Positions 1 through 8,736 of a stretch of DNA of 8,736 nt are shown here, piece after piece (position 1 is the first letter of the stretch; the number at the start of each line of letters is the position of its first letter). Origin of the DNA: a virus (lineage: Duplodnaviria > Heunggongvirae > Uroviricota > Caudoviricetes); IMG/VR virus record IMGVR_UViG_2778261227_000012; one strand, 5' to 3'. The position numbers and the translations under genes are program-made. The notes below the pieces were generated by a model. The model did not search any database and was not told the DNA's origin. It saw nothing but the letters and a program-made list of their open reading frames with translations.

Positions 1-29
1 GTACTTTCACCGCCTGATTTCATTACTGC

Positions 30-51
30 AAATGCCCCTGCGGGGGCATTT
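30..51 (+). terminator. Candidate stem-loop (9-bp perfect inverted repeat AAATGCCCC/GGGGCATTT, 4-nt loop) followed by a weak T-rich tract; possible terminator of an upstream gene outside the window
   Basis: Inverted repeat read directly at 30-38 and 43-51; the T-tract is short (TTTAT), so the terminator call is weak. Confidence 0.3.
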
Positions 52-145
52 ATGGAAACGTAATTAACTCAATAATCACCGGATGGTGAGAGCTTCCTTT
101 TAGCAGAATTCAGCGCGGTGCAGCGCATATAAAGTGGAGAACGAA

Positions 146-682
146 ATGTCATTTATTAAAACTTTTTCCGGGAAGCATTTTTATTATGACAAGATAAATA
201 AAGACGACATCGTGATTAACGATATCGCAGTTTCCCTTTCAAATATCTGTCGCTTTGCAGGACATCTTTCACACTTCTACAGCGTCGCCCAGCATGCGGT
301 GCTTTGCAGCCAGCTGGTACCGCAGGAATTTGCTTTTGAAGCGTTAATGCATGATGCAACAGAAGCATATTGCCAGGACATCCCCGCTCCACTGAAACGC
401 CTTCTTCCTGACTATAAACGGATGGAAGAAAAAATAGATGCCGTAATCCGTGAGAAATACGGGTTACCCCAGGTTATGAGCACGCCTGTGAAATATGCCG
501 ATCTCATCATGCTGGCAACCGAACGCCGCGATCTCGGGCTTGATGATGGCTCTTTCTGGCCTGTACTGGAAGGCATCCCGGCAACAGAGATGTTCAACGT
601 GATTCCACTGGCACCGGGCCATGCCTACGGGATGTTTATGGAACGTTTTAACGAGTTATCGGAGTTACGCAAATGCGCATGA
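146..682 (+). CDS. HD-domain metal-dependent phosphohydrolase (YfdR-like 5'-deoxynucleotidase family), prophage early-region gene
   Basis: ORF track 134..682; I place the start at ATG 146 (GGAGA 6 nt upstream) rather than GTG 134. Product contains an H...HD motif (AGHLSH...LMHDATEAY) typical of the HD phosphohydrolase superfamily. Named by motif and recollection, not by search. Confidence 0.6.
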   Translation: MSFIKTFSGKHFYYDKINKDDIVINDIAVSLSNICRFAGHLSHFYSVAQHAVLCSQLVPQEFAFEALMHDATEAYCQDIPAPLKRLLPDYKRMEEKIDAVIREKYGLPQVMSTPVKYADLIMLATERRDLGLDDGSFWPVLEGIPATEMFNVIPLAPGHAYGMFMERFNELSELRKCA

Positions 683-1035
683 ATGTTTTCGAAATGGAAG
701 GGTTTCTTCGTGGGAGATGTGTACCGCGAGATCTGAAAGTGAATGAAACAGATGCTGAATACCTGGTACGTAAATTCGATGCGCTTGAAGCTAAATGTGC
801 AGCACTGGAAAACAAAGTAATACCAGTGTCAGCTGAACTGCCGCCAGCAAATGAAAGTGTTCTGTTATTTGATGCTAATGGAGAAGGCTGGCTGATTGGC
901 TGGCGTTCTCTCTGGTACACATGGGGGCAAAAAGAAACCGGAGAATGGCAGTGGACATTTCAGGTCGGGGACCTTGAAAACGTCAATATCACTCACTGGG
1001 CAGTAATGCCGAAAGCACCAGAGACTAAGAAATGA
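673..1035 (+). CDS. Hypothetical prophage protein (YfdS-like, 120 aa), Trp-rich C-terminus
   Basis: ORF with GGAG 8 nt upstream of ATG 673; overlaps the stop of the preceding gene by 10 nt (translational coupling); no recognisable catalytic motif. Confidence 0.45.
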   Translation: MRMNVFEMEGFLRGRCVPRDLKVNETDAEYLVRKFDALEAKCAALENKVIPVSAELPPANESVLLFDANGEGWLIGWRSLWYTWGQKETGEWQWTFQVGDLENVNITHWAVMPKAPETKK

Positions 1036-1247
1036 GCGTGATAAAAACTCATACAGGAATTGTTATCACCCGAGACGGTGAAAAGCGGATGAAATTACAT
1101 TCCACTGAAACGTCCTGGGTTGCCGGACGTTGTGAATCCTACGACAAAAAGACTGGTTACCGTTGGGGTGCACCTAACATGCGTCGCCGTCTGCTACTGG
1201 ACAGCATCAGGCCAATAAAACAGGTAGCAACCAGGGAACAAAATTAA
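1032..1247 (+). CDS. Small hypothetical prophage protein (71 aa)
   Basis: ATGA start/stop overlap with the upstream ORF (1032-1035) suggests coupling in the same operon; basic small protein, function unknown. Confidence 0.35.
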   Translation: MSVIKTHTGIVITRDGEKRMKLHSTETSWVAGRCESYDKKTGYRWGAPNMRRRLLLDSIRPIKQVATREQN

Positions 1248-1294
1248 TTATCAGGACTGGAATTTGATATTACTGCCCGTGTGCAGCGGGCTAA

Positions 1295-1513
1295 GTGGAG
1301 AAACATATGCTGAACCTCGATTGTGTTCCAATCTCAACTTATTGCAAAGAAACTGGCGAAACTCCTGAAGCAATAAACAAACGTGTACAGCGCGGTGTTT
1401 GGCGTGAAGGTGTTCAGGTTTTAAAGGTTGAAGGCGTTAAGGAGAGGTGGATTGATCTTAGTGAGGTTGCAAAATGGGCCAGACAAAACTGCTCAAACTA
1501 CCGCGCGGCGTAA
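1295..1513 (+). CDS. Excisionase-like / small DNA-binding recombination directionality factor candidate
   Basis: 72-aa ORF immediately upstream of and overlapping the integrase start (ATG 1474) by 40 nt, the typical xis-int arrangement; GGAG 8 nt upstream of ATG 1295; basic, Trp-containing pattern (RVQRGVWREG...ERWIDLSEVAKW) resembles Xis/AlpA-type winged-helix proteins. Assignment by context and pattern only. Confidence 0.45.
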   Translation: MEKHMLNLDCVPISTYCKETGETPEAINKRVQRGVWREGVQVLKVEGVKERWIDLSEVAKWARQNCSNYRAA

Positions 1514-2640
1514 CAATCAGGAAACACCGCTAGGGCGAAACGATCAATATAACTTTCACCTACAAAGGAGTTAAATGTCGTGAGCCTCTTTCCAATCTGG
1601 AAGTAACACCAAAGAACATTAAATACGCCGAGCGTACACTCGGCGAAATCCATAATAAGATCGAAAGGGGAACATTCATTTATGCAGAATATTTTCCCCG
1701 TTCTGCTCGTTTGAAAATTTTTGGTAATGCTGCTGCAGGCAAAACGGTAAAGATGTACCTGGACGAATATCTTGAAATCTGCGAAACAAGAAAACTTTCA
1801 CCCTCTACGATTGGTGGCTATAAAAAATGCCGTAGTGCGTTAGCCTCACTTCACATTTGCCCTGCAAGTGAATTAACACCAGCAATCCTGAAAGCGTGGA
1901 TTCAAAGCCAGAAAACGACCTTAAAAACAATTCGCAACCAGTTATCTTTCCTGCGGTCAGCACTTGATGAAGCCGTAACCGATGGGGTACTTCAAATTAA
2001 CCCCGTATCGTTGGTAACTGCTTCGCGCTACCAAAGTGATAAGTCAGAAGCAGAAAGCAGCTATGTGGTTGATCCGCTATCACCAGCAGAAGTTGATGCA
2101 TTACTAGCAGCAGCCGGAAACAAACAATGGGAAAATCTGTTCCGGTTCGCCATACATACAGGCCTGCGTAGTTCTGAATTATGTGCCCTACGATGGCATG
2201 ATATCGACTTTGTTGGAAAAACAGCCCATGTTCAGAGCGCAAGTGTTGTCGGAGTTATCAAAGGAACAAAGACAAAAGCCGGTACCCGTAAAGTTGAACT
2301 GACTGAAGAAGCAATGTTGGCGTTGATAAACCAGAAGCCATTTACATTCATGAAGGATGCTACTGTCTTTGAAGATCCAAAGACCAATAAACCCTGGGCA
2401 AGTGCTGATGCAATTAGGAAAAAAGCATGGGTGCCAACATTGCGAAAAGCAGGTATTCGTTACAGAAACCCATATCAAACCAGGCATACATTCGCCACCA
2501 GACATATCAGCCGGGGAGCAAACCTGTTTTGGCTTGCAGCTCAAATGGGGCATAAAGGGCCTGAGATGCTTTTCAGGCACTATGGCTCATATCTGAAGGA
2601 ATATGATGGACAAACAAGCTTGAAGAAGATAACAATATAA
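1474..2640 (+). pseudogene. Tyrosine recombinase (phage integrase with N-terminal arm-DNA-binding domain) interrupted by an in-frame amber codon TAG at 1531-1533 (codon 20)
   Basis: Frame 1 from ATG 1474 reads MGQTKLLKLPRGVTIRKHR-TAG-GETINITFTYKGVKCREPLSNLEVTPKNIKYAERTLGEIHNKIERGTFIYAEYFPRSAR..., the conserved N-terminal pattern of this integrase family (KLPxGVxIR...I.I.F.Y.G.RCRE.L...N.K.AE.....I..G.F.Y...FP.S), continuous across the stop. Downstream catalytic region looks intact (LRSSELCALRWHDIDF; RHTFATRH; MGHK; RHYGSYL with Tyr). The ORF-track start at 1711 is a TTG with no upstream ATG/GTG in frame. Confidence 0.6.
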
Positions 2641-2657
2641 TCCAAGCATGAAACTAT

Positions 2658-2676
2658 TGGCCACAATTTGTGGCCA
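2658..2676. promoter_or_regulatory. Perfect 9-bp inverted repeat TGGCCACAA-T-TTGTGGCCA followed by TTTT; candidate operator or weak terminator between the integrase and the ATPase gene
   Basis: Read directly; lies 18 nt after the integrase stop and 23 nt before ATG 2699; the 9-mer TGGCCACAA recurs at 4457-4465. Confidence 0.4.
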
Positions 2677-2698
2677 TTTTACGGAGCAAGATAGAAAC

Positions 2699-4432
2699 AT
2701 GGCAAATCAAATTACCAAACTAAAAAATATAAATGTTGTGAAGTTTCGCGGACTGAAAAATATAAACATCGAGTTTGGTTCTCGCCTAACTGTTATTTGT
2801 GGTAAAAATGGCACATCTAAATCCACAATTCTTGGCATTATCGCCCAAATATTTAGCTTTACAAAGGACTTTACCAAAAACCCTGAGACTGATTTAACAC
2901 AATATAAAACATTAACAAATGGCAGCTTCAAGTCAGCTTTCAGCGAACATTTTAGGCTTTCAGAACAATTTGATGTTCCTGGTTCAATGGACGTCAAAAT
3001 TAGTGTCTATGATGGTGCATCGAACAAACATCTTGAAAAACTAACATTAGGTTTATACAGCTACAGTGACAGAGATAAATCAAGGCCTGTAGTCAGGGGA
3101 AATGATTCAATACCGGAAAAAAACCAAAGTAGAAACGTTACTCATCCTGTTATTTTTTTAAGCTTAGCACGACTTCTTCCTATTACATTAAGGACTGATT
3201 ACTCAACACGGGATGTTCAGTACATCAATGAAAATTCTGATGAAATCAGAATGATGAGTAACCAACTCTTACTAAAAAACAATGGAAGCTCAGTAACAGC
3301 AACAAAAGGTACTATCGATTCAATGGTTGTCCATGGTGACAATTATGATCACCAATCAGTATCTGTTGGTGAAGATAATGTTGGACAATTAATCCAAGCA
3401 ATTTTTTCATTTAAAAGATTGAAGGAAACTTATTCTGATTATCATGGCGGAATATTGTTAATTGATGAAGCCGATGCAGGTCTTTTCCCTGCTGCACAGT
3501 TAGAGCTAATTAATATTCTAACTAAAGCAGCAAAACAATACGATCTGCAAATAATCATGACCTCGCACTCTCCATTAATAATAGAGGATATCTATAATCG
3601 TTCAAAACAAGATAGTGATAGCTTTAAAACAATATATCTTACAGACACATATGGAGATATTAAAACAAAGAATAATCTTTCATGGACAGATATCCACGCT
3701 GATTTACATGTTGAAACTGTAAAAATTAATGATGACATTTGTCTTCCAAAGGCAAATGTATATTTTGAAGACAAAGAAGGTTTCGACTTTTTCAAACAAT
3801 TGATAACAGATCGAAAAATAAATAAAATATTAAATCCATTAGGGAATATAAATATTAGCTGCTCTGCCATGCTTGACTTAATGGCAAGAAAAATACCAGA
3901 ATTTACAGCTAAAAGCTTGATCGTCTTAGACGGTGATGTTGTTCACGACAATAGTGCTAATGCAAAAAAAGCCAAAAAAGAAAAAAACTTATGTTTGCTT
4001 CCAAGCACCTTACCTCCAGACCAAATGATTTTTGAGTTTTTATATAATTTACCACCTGATGATGCATATTGGGAAAATAAAAATAAATTTACAAAAGCTG
4101 TTTTTATGAAAACAGCTAAAGACATAATTGCAACGCTAAAGATTGGTAACGCTCCGATTGATTTAAAAATCCTTATAGATAATTATAAAAAAGTTAACAA
4201 AAACCATGGCGGGATAGTTAGAAAACTGTTTAAAGATTTTGCACATACGACTCAATTTCAGGCCCAAGTAAAAGGGCGAGTTAAAGATAACCCATATCGA
4301 TATTGGGTCGAGAAAAATCCTGTGCAATCGGATAGCTTCAAGAATGAACTAATAAAGAGTCTTAAAGTTATTATGACAAGTGGACATGGTGTCGATTCTG
4401 CTACCATCTCATCATATCTGTCAGATAACTAA
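2699..4432 (+). CDS. OLD-family (overcoming lysogenization defect-like) nuclease: N-terminal ABC/AAA_21-type ATPase fused to C-terminal TOPRIM-like domain; candidate anti-phage defence protein
   Basis: Walker A LTVICGKNGTSKSTIL; Walker B GGILLIDEADAGLF; H-loop-like IIMTSHSP; C-terminal TOPRIM-like acidic motifs VYFEDKEGFD and SLIVLDGDVV (DxD). Start chosen at ATG 2699 (GGAG 13 nt upstream; N-terminus then matches the usual IxKLxIxNFRGxK lead-in), but ATG 2648 (ORF-track start) cannot be excluded. Gene is visibly AT-rich relative to flanks. Confidence 0.65.
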   Translation: MANQITKLKNINVVKFRGLKNINIEFGSRLTVICGKNGTSKSTILGIIAQIFSFTKDFTKNPETDLTQYKTLTNGSFKSAFSEHFRLSEQFDVPGSMDVKISVYDGASNKHLEKLTLGLYSYSDRDKSRPVVRGNDSIPEKNQSRNVTHPVIFLSLARLLPITLRTDYSTRDVQYINENSDEIRMMSNQLLLKNNGSSVTATKGTIDSMVVHGDNYDHQSVSVGEDNVGQLIQAIFSFKRLKETYSDYHGGILLIDEADAGLFPAAQLELINILTKAAKQYDLQIIMTSHSPLIIEDIYNRSKQDSDSFKTIYLTDTYGDIKTKNNLSWTDIHADLHVETVKINDDICLPKANVYFEDKEGFDFFKQLITDRKINKILNPLGNINISCSAMLDLMARKIPEFTAKSLIVLDGDVVHDNSANAKKAKKEKNLCLLPSTLPPDQMIFEFLYNLPPDDAYWENKNKFTKAVFMKTAKDIIATLKIGNAPIDLKILIDNYKKVNKNHGGIVRKLFKDFAHTTQFQAQVKGRVKDNPYRYWVEKNPVQSDSFKNELIKSLKVIMTSGHGVDSATISSYLSDN

Positions 4433-4440
4433 TTGATTAA

Positions 4441-4479
4441 AAAGGGCTTTATGTGATGGCCACAAAGCCCTTTTTTTGA
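4441..4479 (+). terminator. Rho-independent terminator: 10-bp stem AAAGGGCTTT/AAAGCCCTTT, 13-nt loop, T6 tail
   Basis: Read directly; lies 9 nt after the ATPase stop; the loop contains TGGCCACAA. Confidence 0.6.
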
Positions 4480-4511
4480 TATACTTTAGATCTGACATTT
4501 AGAGGTATCAT

Positions 4512-5411
4512 ATGCGTTTTAACACCCCACTTCGCTATCCTGGCGGTAAAGGCAAGCTTGCAAATTTCATGCTTCGGCTTATTGAAGAAAATAATCTTTC
4601 GCCTATACATTATGCCGAACCATATGCTGGGGGTGCTGGTTTAGCATTGAAACTGTTACATCTAAATGCAGCTGAAAAAATCATCCTTAATGATATTAAT
4701 ATTTCTGTTTATGCTTTTTGGCACAGTGTATTAAATCATGCAGATCAATTATGTTCTTTAATTGAAAGAACTGAAGTTACAATGGATGAATGGTTTAGGC
4801 AGAAAGATATAATTAATAATCCTAAAGACCATGATCTTTTAACAATTGGTTTCTCAACCTTTTTTCTCAATAGAACAAATCGTTCTGGAATATTAAAAGG
4901 TGGAGTAATTGGCGGTAAAAATCAAGAAGGGAAATGGAAGCTTGACGCTCGCTATAATAAGAGTGATTTGATTTCTCGAATCCATAAAATATCAGAAAAT
5001 CGTCACAGAATAGATTTATATAACATGGATGCAATTGATTTCATTAAAAAAATAGTTATTCAATTGCCACAAAACTCATTAACATATTTGGATCCACCTT
5101 ATTACATAAAAGGTAAAGGTTTATATATCAACCATTATAATCATGATGATCATGTTAGGGTTGCAAAAGTCGTACAGAATAATATTAAAACACCTTGGAT
5201 TGTTTCTTACGATAACACTCCTGAGATCCAAGCTATGTATAAGACATCATCATTAGTATATGGAATAAACTACAGTGCTCAAGATCGGTACAAAGGATCT
5301 GAGGTAATGTTCTTCAGTGAACGATTGAAAATCTTTAAAACAGATGATCCAACTAAGGTAAAAGCGCCTGTATTTAAAAGAGGATGTGTTGACGACCACA
5401 TCCAGACATAA
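4512..5411 (+). CDS. Dam-family (D12 class, alpha-type) DNA N6-adenine methyltransferase
   Basis: Motifs in the order of Dam-family enzymes: RYPGGKGKL (Dam WAGGK-like), EPYAGGAG (AdoMet-binding FxGxG), FFLNRTNRSG (Dam LNRxGxNG-like), LTYLDPPYY (catalytic DPPY); AGAGG RBS 7 nt upstream of ATG; AT-rich. Confidence 0.8.
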   Translation: MRFNTPLRYPGGKGKLANFMLRLIEENNLSPIHYAEPYAGGAGLALKLLHLNAAEKIILNDINISVYAFWHSVLNHADQLCSLIERTEVTMDEWFRQKDIINNPKDHDLLTIGFSTFFLNRTNRSGILKGGVIGGKNQEGKWKLDARYNKSDLISRIHKISENRHRIDLYNMDAIDFIKKIVIQLPQNSLTYLDPPYYIKGKGLYINHYNHDDHVRVAKVVQNNIKTPWIVSYDNTPEIQAMYKTSSLVYGINYSAQDRYKGSEVMFFSERLKIFKTDDPTKVKAPVFKRGCVDDHIQT

Positions 5412-5484
5412 AAGGAGCCGCAAAAGATCCGCAGAATAAAATGGTTAGTATTAATCGTTTTATTTCAGCTAATTATAAAAATAC

Positions 5485-5516
5485 GGACTCGGGTTCAACT
5501 CCCGCCAGCTCCACCA
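5485..5516 (+). other. ssrA: 3'-terminal fragment of tmRNA (ssrA): T-arm plus acceptor 3' strand and CCA; attachment-site (att) remnant marking a mobile-element boundary
   Basis: GGACTCGGGTTCAACTCCCGCCAGCTCCACCA: T-loop TTCAACT, 3' acceptor strand CAGCTCC with the U that forms the G3:U70 alanine-identity wobble, discriminator A, CCA. Upstream sequence is AT-rich and not tmRNA-like, so this is a partial copy, not a complete gene. One T-stem position appears unpaired. Confidence 0.7.
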
Positions 5517-5563
5517 AAATTCTCCATCGGTGATTACCAGAGTCATCCGATGAAGTCCTAAGA

Positions 5564-5595
5564 GCCCGCACGGCGCAAGCCCTGCGGGCTTTTTT
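5564..5595 (+). terminator. GC-rich hairpin (GCCCGCA...TGCGGGC) followed by T6; intrinsic terminator downstream of the tmRNA 3' end
   Basis: Read directly; position matches where a native ssrA terminator would sit. Confidence 0.55.
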
Positions 5596-5649
5596 GTGCC
5601 CTCAATTTGTCCCGCGAAGTCCGAAGAAAACTAATTAAATCCGATCCTT

Positions 5650-5721: not shown

Positions 5722-6777
5722 ATGGCAAGACAAACCAAACCTCTATCCGTTAAAGAAATAGAATCAGCCAAACCCAAGGAGGCGGACTACGTTCTCTATG
5801 ATGGCGATGGCCTTGAGCTACTCATTAAATCCAGCGGGAGTAAAATCTGGCAGTTTCGCTACATTCGCCCTGTCACCAAGAAACGAGCAAAGAAGAGCAT
5901 AGGCTCCTACCCGTCAGTTACCCTTGCCGATGCCAGAAACTACCGTGCAGAGTCCCGCTCACTACTGGCTAAACAGATCGATCCGCAGGAACATCAGCAA
6001 GAACAATTGCGCAGTTCGCTGGAAGCCAAAACCAACACTTTCCAACTCGTAGCTGAACGTTGGTGGAATGTGAAGAAAGCCAGTGTGACAGAGGACTATG
6101 CGGAAGATATCTGGCGCTCTCTTGAAAGAGACGTCTTTCCTGCGATTGGCGACGTTAGCGTTACAGATATTAAAGCTCATACACTGGTTCAGGCCGTACA
6201 ACCGGTTCAGGCCAGAGGAGCACTGGAAACTGTTCGTCGCCTGTGCCAACGTATTAATGAGGTCATGATCTATGCCCAGAACACAGGGCTGATTGATGCT
6301 GTTCCCAGCGTTAATATCGGTAAAGCCTTCGAGAAGCCTCAGAAAAAGAACATGCCCAGCATTCGACCGGATCAGCTACCTCAGTTAATGCAGACGATGC
6401 GAACAGCCAGCATTAGCCTTTCCACACGCTGCCTGTTCATGTGGCAACTTCTTACTATTACCCGCCCTGCCGAAGCGGCTGAAGCTCTCTGGGAAGAGGT
6501 AGACATAGAAGCGCGAGAGTGGAAGATTCCTGCAGCACGCATGAAAATGAACCGCGACCATACTGTTCCATTGTCAGATGAAGCAATTGCGATACTAGAG
6601 ATGATGAAGCCGTTAAGTGGAAATCGAGAATTTATCTTTCCCAGCCGCATCAAGCCAAACCAGCCGATGAACAGTCAGACCGTAAACGCATCGCTAAAAC
6701 GCGCAGGTTTTGGTGGGGTGCTCGTTTCACACGGCCTGCGATCTATCGCCAGTACAGCCCTTAATGAGCAGGGATGA
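5722..6777 (+). pseudogene. P4/CP4-57 (IntA)-type tyrosine integrase, C-terminally truncated (ends ...SHGLRSIASTALNEQG, before the catalytic tyrosine)
   Basis: N-terminus MARQTKPLSVKEIESAKPKEADYVLYDGDGLELLIKSSGSKIWQFRY is the hallmark of P4-family integrases that follow tRNA/tmRNA genes; the H-G-L-R box is present, but the ORF stops before the conserved downstream segment with the second His and active-site Tyr. No other frame continues the homology, so this is truncation or replacement, not a simple frameshift. Confidence 0.6.
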
Positions 6778-6852
6778 TGCGCCGCGCGATAAACGTACCT
6801 ATTTCCGTGAGATAAATTACATCGCCGCGGCATTTCAATATCAGAAAAAGAA

Positions 6853-7425
6853 TTACAAATCAGCTTGAGTTTGAAGTTCCTCTACAGGGTGATAACGATA
6901 AATCGTCGATATACCGATATCGTAAATAATTGCCAACTGTTTCCTGCTATAGCCATTTTTGATCAGCCTTGCTATTTGTTCATGTTGCTCTTTTGTCAGT
7001 TTCGGACGACGTCCACCAATACGCCCCTGTGCACGTGCTGCTTCAAGTCCGGCCAGTGTTCGTTCAACTATTAATTCACGCTCCATTTCCGCTAAAGCCC
7101 CCATGACGTGAAAAAAGAAACGTCCCATGGGTGTTGACGTATCAATGCTGTCTGTAAGACTACGGAAGTTAACCCCTTTTTCCCGCAGTTCCTCAATAAG
7201 AGTGATGAGGTGTTTCATGCTTCTGCCCAGCCTGTCCAGCTTCCAGACAACGAGCGTATCTCCTTCTGATAACGTTCTGAGCAGCTTTTTCAATCCCGGT
7301 CGGGCTGACTTTGTTCCGCTGATTTTATCCTCAAAAATCAGTTCACATCCTGCGCAGTTCAGTGCGTTTCGTTGTAAATCTGTATTCTGGTCATTTGTTG
7401 ACACACGAATGTAGCCAATTTGCAT
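6853..7425 (-). CDS. Serine recombinase, DNA invertase of the Hin/Gin/Pin/Cin family
   Basis: N-terminus MQIGYIRVSTNDQNTDLQRNAL with catalytic Ser in YIRVSTNDQ; conserved LVVWKLDRLGRS, GRFFFHVMGALAEMERELIVERT, C-terminal HTH (ISTIYRY). True start is the internal ATG at 7425-7423 (AAGAGGA RBS upstream on the minus strand); the 65-codon N-terminal extension in the ORF track is not family-like. Confidence 0.85.
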   Translation of the reverse strand: MQIGYIRVSTNDQNTDLQRNALNCAGCELIFEDKISGTKSARPGLKKLLRTLSEGDTLVVWKLDRLGRSMKHLITLIEELREKGVNFRSLTDSIDTSTPMGRFFFHVMGALAEMERELIVERTLAGLEAARAQGRIGGRRPKLTKEQHEQIARLIKNGYSRKQLAIIYDIGISTIYRYHPVEELQTQADL

Positions 7426-7477
7426 GAAAAATATCCTCTTTGTTTTGTTAAAAATACATAGCTGGTATAGGTGGGAG

Positions 7478-7503
7478 TTAAGACGAAAACGTTGGTTTGG
7501 GGG
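7478..7503. promoter_or_regulatory. Candidate invertase crossover site (AAACGTTGGTTT core, resembling the AAACC-NN-GGTTT core of hix/gix sites), overlapping the start of cassette 1 and lying about 55 bp upstream of the invertase start
   Basis: Sequence AGACGAAAACGTTGGTTTGGGGGAAGG; the same core recurs at the start of cassettes 2 and 3 (about 7962-7987 and 8562-8587). Half-site symmetry is imperfect; exact boundaries are uncertain. Confidence 0.3.
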
Positions 7504-7964
7504 AAGGCTCGGCGCTGCCCGTTGGTGTGCCTGTTCCGTGGCCCTCAGCCACACCACCAACGGGCTGGCTGAAATGTAACGGTGCAGCATTTTCTTCTGA
7601 AATGTATCCCAAACTGGCAAAAGCTTACCCCACCAATAAATTACCGGATTTACGGGGTGAATTTATTCGTGGCTGGGATGATGGGCGGGGAATTGATAAT
7701 AGACGCAACCTACTGTCTGCACAGTCTGACACTATTCAGAATATAGTTGGCACTTTTGGACGAACTCAGCTTTTTAAAGATGCTTTAAATTCAGGGCCAT
7801 TTAGTCAAACTGACTCTATATTATCAGTAGGCTTGCAACCAACTGAGAGTATTGAAGGATATGGCGCCTCTGTATGGACATTCGACGCCTCTCGCTCAGT
7901 TCGCACAGCATCTGAAACACGTCCTCGTAACATTGCGTTTAATTACATCGTAAGGGCGGCATAG
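7482..7964 (+). CDS. Tail-fibre C-terminal cassette 1 (phage tail collar domain + variable receptor-binding core + conserved ...ETRPRNIAFNYIVRAA end); promoterless, no ATG start
   Basis: Open in frame from 7482; conserved motifs PWPSATPPTGWLKCNGAAFSSEMYP...LPDLRGEFIRGWDDGRG (tail collar) and NIAFNYIVRAA (P2 H / T-even fibre-type C-terminus); no ATG or RBS, begins 56 nt from the divergent invertase start. Confidence 0.6.
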   Translation, partial: DENVGLGEGSALPVGVPVPWPSATPPTGWLKCNGAAFSSEMYPKLAKAYPTNKLPDLRGEFIRGWDDGRGIDNRRNLLSAQSDTIQNIVGTFGRTQLFKDALNSGPFSQTDSILSVGLQPTESIEGYGASVWTFDASRSVRTASETRPRNIAFNYIVRAA

Positions 7965-8565
7965 AAACGTTGGTTTGGGGGAAGGCTCTGCACTGCCCGT
8001 TGGTGTGCCTGTTCCGTGGCCCTCAGCCACACCGCCAACAGGGTGGCTGAAATGTAACGGCGCAGCATTTTCTTCTGAAATGTACCCCAATCTGGCACAG
8101 GCTTACCCCACGAATAAATTACCGGATTTACGCGGTGAATTTATCCGTGGCTGGGATGACGGACGTGGCGTGGATGCGTGGCGAACATTACTGAGTGCTC
8201 AGGATTTTGCGTTTGAAGATCATGCTCTGGGGCTACCTACCAATCAGGGATATGCAGGTATTGAGAAAGGTAGCACTGAAAATGATGTTTATGCCGCTTT
8301 CTCTGATGGCATGCACTATACAGGGAATGTAACCAGTAGCGGTCAATGGGATGATTATTCTCAGTCAAAAATTTATATCCGTAGTGATGGTAAGCCTGTC
8401 GGAAATAATATTGAGTTAGCTAACTCAAGTGAGGCTTTGCGTTCTTCTTTGCGTACTTATAGAGCCAGTACAGGATGGTATAACCCAGGACTAAACAAAC
8501 CTAAAACAGCTACAGAAACACGTCCGCGCAACGTTGCTTTTAATTACATCGTAAGAGCCGCATGA
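7954..8565 (+). CDS. Tail-fibre C-terminal cassette 2 (same conserved collar N-block and C-terminal block, different and longer variable core); promoterless
   Basis: Open in frame from 7954, overlapping the cassette 1 stop (7962-7964) by 11 nt in another frame; conserved first ~65 codons and last ~16 codons, divergent middle. Confidence 0.6.
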   Translation, partial: GRHRNVGLGEGSALPVGVPVPWPSATPPTGWLKCNGAAFSSEMYPNLAQAYPTNKLPDLRGEFIRGWDDGRGVDAWRTLLSAQDFAFEDHALGLPTNQGYAGIEKGSTENDVYAAFSDGMHYTGNVTSSGQWDDYSQSKIYIRSDGKPVGNNIELANSSEALRSSLRTYRASTGWYNPGLNKPKTATETRPRNVAFNYIVRAA

Positions 8566-8736
8566 AAACGTTGGTTTGGGGGAAGGCTCTGCACTGCCCG
8601 TTGGTGTGCCTGTTCCGTGGCCCTCAGCCACACCGTCAACAGGGTGGCTGAAATGTAACGGCGCAGCATTTTCTTCTGAAATGTACCCCAAACTGGCACA
8701 GGCTTACCCCACCAATAAATTACCGGATTTACGGGG
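8555..8736 (+). CDS. Tail-fibre C-terminal cassette 3, partial (runs off the window end); same conserved collar N-block
   Basis: Open in frame from 8555, overlapping the cassette 2 stop (8563-8565); sequence to 8736 repeats the conserved 5' block and mixes variants seen in copies 1 and 2. Confidence 0.55.

What the first reader, a model, noticed from the sequence alone, without database searches (positions are those of the whole stretch)
7482..8736. Cassettes are mosaics: conserved 5' and 3' blocks flank variable receptor-binding cores, and copy 3 mixes variants of copies 1 and 2
By eye the first ~190 nt of copies 1 and 2 differ at roughly a dozen positions, mostly synonymous, then diverge completely in sequence and length (about 70 versus 110 codons of core) before reconverging on ...ETRPRN(I/V)AFNYIVRAA. 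Copy 3 carries copy-2-like variants at some positions (CTCTGCACTG, GCACAGGC) and copy-1-like variants at others (CAAACTGG, CCACCAAT), suggesting gene conversion or recombination between cassettes. The ~200-nt homology would also allow RecA-dependent cassette exchange independent of the invertase.
Basis: seen in the sequence. Interest (0 to 1): 0.5.

Follow-up and report, generated by a model that had tools for sequence, protein, structure and literature searches.

The report
Swappable phage tail-fibre tip cassettes
These are promoterless spare tips for a phage tail fibre, swapped onto the fibre gene by a Min-type DNA invertase; this is a long-known kind of host-range switch, and the shared ends of the cassettes encode one structural domain that also recombines among cassettes.

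Summary
Three directly repeated units start at 26-bp invertase crossover sites (7480-7505, 7958-7983, 8559-8584). Copies 1 and 2 differ at 15 of the first 198 nt (13 synonymous, dN/dS 0.04). Their cores (63 and 104 codons) show no detectable similarity, and 15 of the last 17 residues are identical.

Copy 3 matches copy 2 at 9 sites, copy 1 at 3, and has 1 private change. On three sequences that does not demonstrate recombination (p = 0.11). Copy 3 is the start of another cassette type, D (or E), known complete in sister loci. With that full sequence a breakpoint near nt 135-146 is significant (p = 0.0002 for D, 0.013 for E). Across 21 cassettes from four loci, recombination is clear (PHI p <= 0.0005), and the first ~140 nt are unlinked from core type.

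The system is a Min (p15B)-type multiple-inversion module at the right end of a Mu-like prophage inserted in an integrase gene. The conserved blocks match the two ends of the T4 gp37/gp12-type collar; the core corresponds to the out-and-back receptor-binding tip.

This is a new member of a known kind, of modest interest.

The parts
6775..6852 (.). Right end of a Mu-like transposable prophage (TGATGCGCCGCGCGATAAACG...). It abuts the truncated host integrase gene, and its first TGA supplies that gene's stop codon.
   Evidence: The same sequence joins three unrelated host sequences in the window, L010 and L009. 17 of the first 21 nt match the right end of phage SfMu.
6853..7425 (-). Min-type serine DNA invertase, 190 aa (MQIGYIRVSTNDQ...).
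   Evidence: Pfam Resolvase 1.7e-51 plus HTH_7. 183/190 aa identical to the invertase of pMCR_SCKP-LL83. That plasmid's inversion region is reported as 99% identical to p15B min (PMC5786510). 72.7% identical to the SfMu Gin and to a P1-like Cin.
7480..7505 (+). Crossover site 1 (AAGACGAAAACG TT GGTTTGGGGGAA), next to the invertase gene.
   Evidence: Flanks are exchanged exactly at the central TT in the sister loci. The 12-2-12 layout matches the SfMu gix sites.
7488..7721 (+). Copy 1 (cassette B), conserved 5' block: N-terminal part of the collar domain.
   Evidence: Pfam Collar 5.1e-15. Aligns to T4 gp37 tip residues 27-89 and to gp12.
7722..7910 (+). Copy 1 (cassette B), variable core of 63 codons: putative receptor-binding tip.
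   Evidence: No similarity to the copy 2 core. The whole cassette aligns to a solved short tail fibre, 9cuy_c residues 154-303, E 3.5e-25.
7911..7964 (+). Copy 1, conserved 3' block (TASETRPRNIAFNYIVRAA plus stop): the C-terminal strand that by homology returns to the collar.
   Evidence: Matches the gp37 C-terminus ...NIAFNYIVRLA. The gp37-type tip chain doubles back to the collar (PMC12609058).
7958..7983 (+). Crossover site 2. It overlaps the stop codon of copy 1.
7966..8199 (+). Copy 2 (cassette C), conserved 5' block.
   Evidence: Pfam Collar 1.4e-14; alignment.
8200..8511 (+). Copy 2 (cassette C), variable core of 104 codons.
   Evidence: The best match among sequenced phages is only about 52% identical over the whole cassette.
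8512..8565 (+). Copy 2, conserved 3' block (TATETRPRNVAFNYIVRAA plus stop).
8559..8584 (+). Crossover site 3.
8567..8736 (+). Copy 3: the first 168 nt of another cassette, type D (or possibly E), cut off by the contig end.
   Evidence: 168/168 nt identical to cassette D of L009. One mismatch to D of L010 and to E of both loci. The window is the whole contig NLUL01000064.1.

Best explanation
The region is the invertase-proximal part of a Min (p15B)-type multiple-inversion tail-fibre switch. It lies at the right end of a Mu-like transposable prophage.

Each unit is a silent, promoterless C-terminal cassette that begins at a 26-bp crossover site. The serine invertase recombines the site of a cassette with the oppositely oriented site in the expressed fibre gene, which lies beyond the contig end. 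This inverts the DNA between the two sites and fuses the constant shaft in frame to a new tip.

The conserved 5' block (about 70-78 codons) and the conserved 3' block (17 codons) are the two parts of one collar domain of the T4 gp37/gp12 type. The variable core is the out-and-back excursion that carries the receptor-binding surface. This explains why both ends are kept by strong purifying selection while the middle can be anything.

On top of this, the collar-coding 5' block has exchanged segments among cassettes by homologous recombination, both within an array and between arrays on different phages. Its first ~140 nt therefore behave as a shared pool unlinked from the core, and individual cassettes such as the one copy 3 belongs to are chimeras.

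Shown here:
- the sites, the reading frames, and the homology to Min-type invertases and to the gp37/gp12 collar;
- natural inversion isomers;
- statistical signs of recombination.

Inferred:
- activity in this particular strain;
- the fold of the core;
- receptor binding;
- the enzymology (RecA) of the homologous exchange.
For: Invertase: Pfam Resolvase plus HTH_7, and 183/190 aa identical to the invertase of a p15B-min-like region.

Sites and isomers:
- Three in-register 12+TT+12 sites.
- Sister loci L009 and L010 carry the same five cassettes as signed permutations of segments that are 99.9-100% identical when cut at the central TT. The window's B and C segments are 100% identical to theirs.
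- The invertase-side flank is joined to cassette A, B or D, and the fibre-side flank to B or E, in different genomes.
- No promoter or terminator excess inside the cassettes.

Collar: Pfam hit above threshold. Both ends of the cassettes align to T4 gp37 tip 2XGF, including NIAFNYIVR at the extreme C-terminus. The whole of cassette B aligns to 9cuy_c. In gp37-type tips the chain doubles back to the collar (PMC12609058).

Selection: dN/dS 0.04 in the 5' block.

Recombination:
- Breakpoint in D relative to B and C, p = 0.00018 (0.013 if copy 3 is E).
- 706 of 1081 informative site pairs are incompatible, PHI p <= 0.0005.
- For 18 of 21 cassettes, the nearest 5' block belongs only to a different core type.
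- The E cores of L013 and L012 differ by 1.4% but their 5' blocks by 8.6%.
- Over nt 18-140, same-type distance equals different-type distance, and within-locus blocks are closer (p = 0.02). Linkage to the core appears only after nt 140.
Against: - The window holds only three sites, all in one orientation. The expressed gene and any inverted partner site lie off the contig, so activity in this strain is not shown.
- Within the window the mosaic signal is not significant (p = 0.11). Among the five Mu-type cassettes alone PHI is not significant (p about 0.3-0.6).
- Some incompatible sites lie only 7 nt apart and two of them are non-synonymous, so recurrent mutation or selection contributes.
- The monomer AlphaFold model was too poor (pLDDT 49) to confirm that the two blocks pack together.
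- Cassettes B and C lack the HxH motifs typical of gp37-type needles, so their cores may fold differently.
Confidence: 0.78

Rival explanations
1. There has been no recombination. The three 5' blocks differ only by independent point mutations on a star-shaped genealogy, and purifying selection on the collar keeps them alike. On this view copy 3 'mixing' variants is an illusion of comparing three sequences.
For: With three sequences every variable site is a singleton: 9 on copy 1, 3 on copy 2 and 1 on copy 3. Their order along the block is compatible with chance (p = 0.11). dN/dS of 0.04 shows that selection alone can hold the protein constant. PHI on the five Mu-type cassettes is not significant.
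Against: With the complete cassette the breakpoint is significant (p = 0.00018 for D, 0.013 for E). The 21-cassette set gives PHI p <= 0.0005 and 65% incompatible site pairs. 5' blocks do not follow core types, and near-identical cores carry 5' blocks that differ by 6-9%.
Confidence: 0.08
2. The mixed copy 3 is an assembly artefact. A short-read assembler threaded a chimeric path through a repeat of about 230 nt at the contig end.
For: The window is a complete short contig that stops inside the repeated block. An independent assembly of the same junction stops at the first crossover site (L005).
Against: The 168 nt of copy 3 are identical, including the private C-to-T change, to cassette D on a 749-kb contig of another genome. 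The B and C segments are 100% identical in three assemblies.
Confidence: 0.03
3. The mosaicism arises mainly between elements, not within an array. Co-resident Mu-like, P2-like and P1-like prophages carry homologous modules and swap collar segments or whole cassettes by general or phage-encoded recombination. Intra-locus gene conversion would then be minor.
For: The same invertase-plus-cassette module occurs in all three phage types at 87-98% identity. Patches such as the PLETPP variant are shared between cassettes of different loci. Several nearest 5' block neighbours lie in other loci.
Against: All five Mu-type cassettes have their nearest 5' block inside their own locus. In L013, neighbouring B and F blocks differ by only 4 nt. 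Different-type blocks are closer within loci than between them (p = 0.02). The two routes are not exclusive.
Confidence: 0.3

Closest known systems
Min multiple DNA inversion system of plasmid p15B (Sandmeier, Iida, Arber and colleagues, 1990-1992)
   Same: A serine invertase about 96% identical to that of a p15B-min-like region. Several 26-bp crossover sites. An array of promoterless tail-fibre 3' cassettes of about 145-200 codons, only one of which is followed by a tail-fibre assembly gene. The constant 5' part is fused to alternative 3' parts. From memory, the 1992 paper already described these regions as mosaics of partly related repeated elements.
   Different: Here the module sits at the end of a Mu-like chromosomal prophage and feeds a short fibre gene of 319-322 aa, rather than the P1-type gene (874 aa in L002). 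Sister loci have five cassettes. Cassette types A and C were not seen in the P1-like arrays examined. The original p15B papers could not be read here.
G segment and Gin of phage Mu / SfMu
   Same: Position next to the phage right end. Invertase gene divergent from the adjacent silent cassette. The crossover site lies inside the fibre gene at the constant/variable junction. Same 12-2-12 site layout. Invertase 72.7% identical.
   Different: Mu has two alternative S/U sets, each with its own assembly gene, flanked by one pair of inverted sites. Here there are five or more short cassettes and one assembly gene. The central dinucleotide is TT rather than TC/GA. There is no com/mom after the invertase.
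C segment and Cin of phage P1, and the Pin system of e14
   Same: Din-family invertase and a tail-fibre C-terminus switch.
   Different: Those are single invertible segments with two alternatives.
Receptor-binding tips of T4 gp37 (PDB 2XGF) and gp12 (1OCY), and the short tail fibre 9cuy
   Same: The N-terminal collar sequence and the extreme C-terminal ...NIAFNYIVR motif are shared. The variable part lies between them. In the solved tips the chain goes out and returns to the collar.
   Different: The cores of copies 1 and 2 are much shorter than the gp37 needle and lack HxH motifs (copy 2 has a single His in DHALG). Other cassettes in the arrays (D, E, G, H, J) do have HxH.
R64-type shufflon (Rci)
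   Same: Multiple inversions assemble alternative C-termini on a constant N-terminal part.
   Different: Rci is a tyrosine recombinase with asymmetric sfx sites, and it acts on a pilus adhesin. Here the enzyme is a serine invertase.

Membership tests
Din-family (Gin/Cin/Pin/Hin/Min) DNA invertase system | Small serine recombinase (about 190 aa) with an N-terminal resolvase catalytic domain and a C-terminal HTH | tested here: met
   Pfam Resolvase 1.7e-51 and HTH_7 1.3e-13; N-terminus MQIGYIRVSTNDQ
Din-family (Gin/Cin/Pin/Hin/Min) DNA invertase system | 26-bp crossover sites made of two 12-bp half-sites around a 2-bp core that is identical in recombining partners | tested here: met
   Three sites in the window and 5-9 in each intact related locus, all with central TT. 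Flank exchange maps to the TT. Layout matches the SfMu gix sites.
Din-family (Gin/Cin/Pin/Hin/Min) DNA invertase system | Fis-dependent recombinational enhancer inside the invertase gene | not tested
   No reliable sequence test is available with these tools
Min-type multiple inversion (p15B) | Close relationship of the invertase to Min | tested here: met
   183/190 aa identical to the invertase of pMCR_SCKP-LL83. Its region is reported as 99% identical to p15B min over 92% coverage (PMC5786510). The link to p15B itself is indirect.
Min-type multiple inversion (p15B) | More than two sites in both orientations, giving overlapping invertible segments and several alternative gene fusions | tested here: inconclusive
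   The window has three sites, all in the + orientation, and the contig ends before any inverted partner. The feature is met in the sister loci L009 and L010, which carry the same cassettes as different isomers.
T4 gp37/gp12-type receptor-binding tip (Pfam Collar, PF07484) | Collar domain sequence | tested here: met
   55.6 and 54.2 bits against a cut-off of 24. PDB sequence matches to 2XGF, 1OCY, 5IV5 and 9CUY.
T4 gp37/gp12-type receptor-binding tip (Pfam Collar, PF07484) | The chain returns so that the extreme C-terminus joins the collar | tested here: inconclusive
   The C-terminal motif aligns to the last residues of gp37, and the topology is described in PMC12609058. The AlphaFold monomer model was unusable (pLDDT 49).
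T4 gp37/gp12-type receptor-binding tip (Pfam Collar, PF07484) | HxH metal-binding motifs in the needle | tested here: not met
   Absent from the cores of copies 1 and 2 (copy 2 has DHALG). Present in cassettes D, E, G, H and J of related arrays.
Mu G-segment | One invertible segment with two S/U gene sets | tested here: not met
   Five cassettes and a single Caudo_TAP gene in L009 and L010, in contrast to SfMu
R64-type shufflon | Tyrosine recombinase Rci | tested here: not met
   The recombinase is of the serine type

The most novel reading that the evidence does not exclude
The collar-coding block may be a second, homology-based exchange point that works alongside the invertase. Crossovers or conversion tracts anywhere in its first ~140 nt would re-link collars and tips, delete or duplicate cassettes, and carry tips between Mu-like, P2-like and P1-like phages. 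The array would then diversify on two tiers. A more speculative version is that breaks made by the invertase at the crossover site seed these conversion tracts.
Probability: 0.4. Interest if true: 0.4.

Novelty: new member of a known kind. Interest (0 to 1): 0.27.

Why it matters
It shows how one short module gives three unrelated phage types (Mu-like, P2-like, P1-like) a menu of receptor-binding tips. It also gives a structural reason for the conserved ends: they are the two parts of the collar domain.

For practice, the cassette boundaries mark where tips can be swapped when engineering phage or tailocin host range.

It also explains why short-read assemblies break at this locus. It does not change current understanding of inversion switches.

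Tried and rejected
- AlphaFold2 monomer model of cassette B with a 38-sequence alignment: mean pLDDT 49, pTM 0.38. It was too poor for a fold search, so none was run. The tip is an intertwined trimer, which a monomer run cannot model.
- PHI test on the five Mu-type cassettes alone: not significant. There are only 10 informative sites.
- Maximum chi-square test on the window's three copies alone: p = 0.11.
- The original Min papers (PMC206102, PMC53420, PMC329034) are not held. Statements about p15B rest on later papers that cite them and on my memory.
- Predicting receptors by comparison with sequenced phages: the best matches (HK97 Stf, P2-like, pro483, HK106) reach only 50-67% identity, carried mostly by the collar. 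No specificity can be assigned.
- Promoter and terminator scan: nothing above chance in 6700-8736.
- ARAGORN found no tRNA or tmRNA gene. Rfam gave only a sub-threshold tmRNA fragment.
- Considered and rejected: that the long minus-strand ORF 6853-7620 is a longer invertase. The conserved start is the ATG at 7425, and the extension is antisense to the cassette 5' block.
- Considered and rejected: that the shorter distance from the invertase to cassette B in the window requires a deletion. Two site-specific inversions from the L010 arrangement give the same order.

Full report
**What is in the sequence.**
The window is a complete 8736-bp contig, NLUL01000064.1 of assembly GCA_002232775.1. From 7480 onward it holds three directly repeated units. 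Each starts at a 26-bp site of the form 12 + TT + 12. The first reads AAGACGAAAACG TT GGTTTGGGGGAA at 7480-7505. The others are at 7958-7983 and 8559-8584, all in the same orientation.

Reading in frame from the sites:
- Copy 1 runs 7488-7964 (158 codons).
- Copy 2 runs 7966-8565 (199 codons).
- Copy 3 runs from 8567 to the contig end (56 codons).

Immediately to the left, on the other strand, is a 190-aa serine invertase gene (6853-7425; Pfam Resolvase 1.7e-51 plus HTH_7).

**Checking the observation.**
Copies 1 and 2 differ at 13 positions in the first 190 nt and at 15 in the first 198 nt. Thirteen of the 15 are synonymous and two are not (K to N, K to Q). This gives dS 0.32, dN 0.014 and dN/dS 0.04.

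After LLSAQ the sequences part. The cores are 63 and 104 codons, and BLASTP finds no alignment between them even at E = 100. They rejoin for the last 17 residues, TA(S/T)ETRPRN(I/V)AFNYIVRAA, with 15/17 identical. There, 8 of 51 nucleotides differ and synonymous sites are near saturation, so this block is conserved as protein rather than as DNA.

At the sites where copies 1 and 2 differ, it equals copy 2 at nine and copy 1 at three. It also has one private change.

**Is the mixing in copy 3 more than chance?**
Three sequences give a star tree. Each variable site is a private change on one branch: nine on copy 1, three on copy 2 and one on copy 3. Recombination can only be inferred from how these sites are arranged along the sequence. 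Inside the window that arrangement is not significant (maximum chi-square, 100,000 permutations, p = 0.11).

The sister loci settle what copy 3 is. L009 and L010 were found through the exact protein of copy 2. They carry five cassette types, which I call A to E.
- Copy 1 is type B and copy 2 is type C.
- The 168 nt of copy 3 are identical to the start of cassette D in L009, including the private base.
- They differ by one base from D of L010 and from E of both loci.
- D follows C in L010.

Using the whole 5' block of D, the pattern along the block is 2222222122 and then 111111111. This is a breakpoint near nt 135-146, with p = 0.00018. If copy 3 were E instead, p = 0.013. In the five-cassette context, the 'copy-2-like' first part is simply the family consensus from which copy 1 departs. 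The second part falls into two haplotypes, {A, C} and {B, D, E}.

**Family-level evidence for recombination.**
I extracted 21 intact or near-intact cassettes from four independent arrays: the Mu-like L010, the P1-like plasmid L002, and the P2-like prophages L012 and L013.
- In the 187 nt after the site, 706 of 1081 pairs of informative sites are incompatible. Incompatibility is lower between neighbouring sites than in permuted data (PHI p <= 0.0005 for windows of 30 and 50 nt, and 0.025 for 100 nt).
- The 5' blocks do not follow the cores. The mean distance between cassettes of the same core type in different loci is 19.7 differences. Different types in the same locus average 20.2, and other pairs 21.6. 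For 18 of 21 cassettes the nearest 5' block belongs only to a different core type.
- Cores that are almost identical carry diverged 5' blocks. The E cores of L013 and L012 differ by 1.4%, their 5' blocks by 8.6%. For F of L002 and L013 the figures are 1.3% and 6.4%.
- Broken down along the block, nt 18-140 show no linkage to core type, and blocks within a locus are slightly more alike (p = 0.02). Linkage to the core appears in nt 140-205 (8.7% against about 12%) and is strong after nt 205.

**What the system is.**
The invertase is 183/190 aa identical to the one in plasmid pMCR_SCKP-LL83. That plasmid's inversion region is reported as 99% identical, over 92% coverage, to the min region of p15B (PMC5786510). 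The invertase is 72.7% identical to the Gin of SfMu and to a P1-like Cin. The plasmid region has nine sites of the same sequence and the same kind of short cassettes.

L009 and L010 are inversion isomers of one array. When cut at the central TT, their segments are 99.9-100% identical but occur as different signed permutations. The B and C segments of the window are 100% identical to theirs. The invertase-side flank is joined to cassette A, B or D, and the fibre-gene flank to B or E, in different genomes. The base just left of the TT stays with the left flank.

The order in the window (invertase, B, C, then D or E) can be reached from L010 by two inversions; this is my own derivation. The cassettes show no excess of promoter or terminator signals, which fits silent spares. 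This is a Min-type multiple inversion switch. The module occurs in P1-like plasmids (201 plasmid records match), in P2-like prophages and in Mu-like prophages.

**Why both ends are conserved.**
Both cassettes hit Pfam Collar well above threshold. Against solved structures:
- Cassette B aligns over its whole length to a short tail fibre (9cuy_c residues 154-303, E 3.5e-25).
- Both cassettes match the T4 gp37 tip (2XGF) at both ends. The N-terminal block aligns to residues 27-89, and ...NIAFNYIVR aligns to the extreme C-terminus.
- Both also match gp12.

In gp37-type tips the chain leaves the collar, runs to the head domain, doubles back and ends in the collar (PMC12609058). In gp12, residues 342-397 form the collar (PMC3004832). 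By homology, the 5' block and the 3' block are two parts of one domain, and the core is the excursion that carries the binding surface. This accounts for the very low dN/dS with substantial dS.

I could not confirm the packing in three dimensions. A monomer AlphaFold model had pLDDT 49. The cores of copies 1 and 2 lack the HxH motifs of gp37-type needles, whereas cassettes D, E, G, H and J have them. No sequenced phage has a close match to either core, so no receptor can be predicted.

**Homologous exchange as a mechanism.**
Exact matches between units reach 41 nt (copies 1 and 2) and 70 and 55 nt (copies 2 and 3). As I recall, this is above the roughly 25-bp minimum for RecA-dependent recombination in E. 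coli.
- Between direct repeats, as in the window, a crossover would delete the intervening core and leave a chimeric block.
- Between a silent cassette and the oppositely oriented expressed one, a crossover would invert the DNA, much as the invertase does, but with the junction inside the collar-coding block.

Either event would leave the chimeras observed. Nothing here shows which enzyme did it, or whether the exchanges happened within arrays or between co-resident phages.

**Surroundings.**
The invertase lies 76 nt from a Mu-type end. From 6775 (TGATGCGCCGCGCGATAAACG...) the window, L010 and L009 are identical, but upstream they continue into three unrelated host sequences. Seventeen of the first 21 nt match the right end of SfMu. 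In the window the insertion cuts a P4-type integrase gene at codon 351. That gene is 100% identical up to this point in several E. coli chromosomes.

**Verdict.**
The object is a new member of a long-known kind, with a clear structural and evolutionary reading. Interest is modest.

Noticed in passing
window 6775-6852 (with 5722-6777): A Mu-type transposable prophage end (TG...) is inserted in a P4-type integrase gene. The prophage's own TGA ends the 351-aa truncated integrase. The same end meets three different host sequences in the window, L010 and L009, and resembles the SfMu right end (17/21 nt).
   Followed up: yes
L009 11557-12174, L010 11105-11722, L002 9983-10594, L012 7115-7732, L013 7015-7626, L015 8075-8686: Each array has only one tail-fibre assembly (Caudo_TAP) gene. 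It follows cassette D in the Mu-like loci and cassette G in the P1- and P2-like loci. The other cassettes have none, and in most isomers the assembly gene points against the fibre operon. How those tips fold is open.
   Followed up: partly
cassettes in L002, L009, L010, L012, L013, L015 (just after the 5' block): HxH motifs (DHIHY, KHRHI, SHYHN, DHAHG, AHRHE) occur in cassettes D, E, G, H and J. They are absent from B, A, F and I. Copy 2 (C) has DHALG with a single His. The cores may therefore belong to at least two structural classes.
   Followed up: no
L009 9514, L010 12214, L002 11620, L012 8705, L013 8532, L015 12069: The site fused to the expressed fibre gene reads ...ACC TT GGTTT (a better dyad). 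All silent cassette sites read ...ACG TT GGTTT. The variable base stays with the left flank through inversions.
   Followed up: partly
window 8736 and L005 end (6895): Both short-read contigs stop inside the repeated site/5' block, as expected where repeats or mixed inversion isomers break an assembly. The rest of the array and the fibre gene of this strain are therefore on other contigs.
   Followed up: partly
window 1-5600: There is a separate island upstream: small phage-like ORFs, a tyrosine integrase (1711-2640), an AAA ATPase of 594 aa (2648-4432) and a D12-class adenine methylase (4512-5411). A sub-threshold tmRNA 3' fragment follows at 5414-5516, which suggests elements stacked at ssrA.
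   Followed up: partly
window 6853-7620 minus strand; 7896-8090 and 8491-8691 minus strand: Open antisense frames run through each conserved 5' block. Beside the invertase, the antisense frame is continuous with the invertase ORF (a 255-aa ORF from a TTG). I judge this an accident of composition, because the conserved invertase start is the ATG at 7425.
   Followed up: partly
L001 9607-12630: In a P2-like prophage with 98% identity to the window's invertase and copy 1, most cassettes are frameshifted or truncated. This is a decaying array.
   Followed up: no
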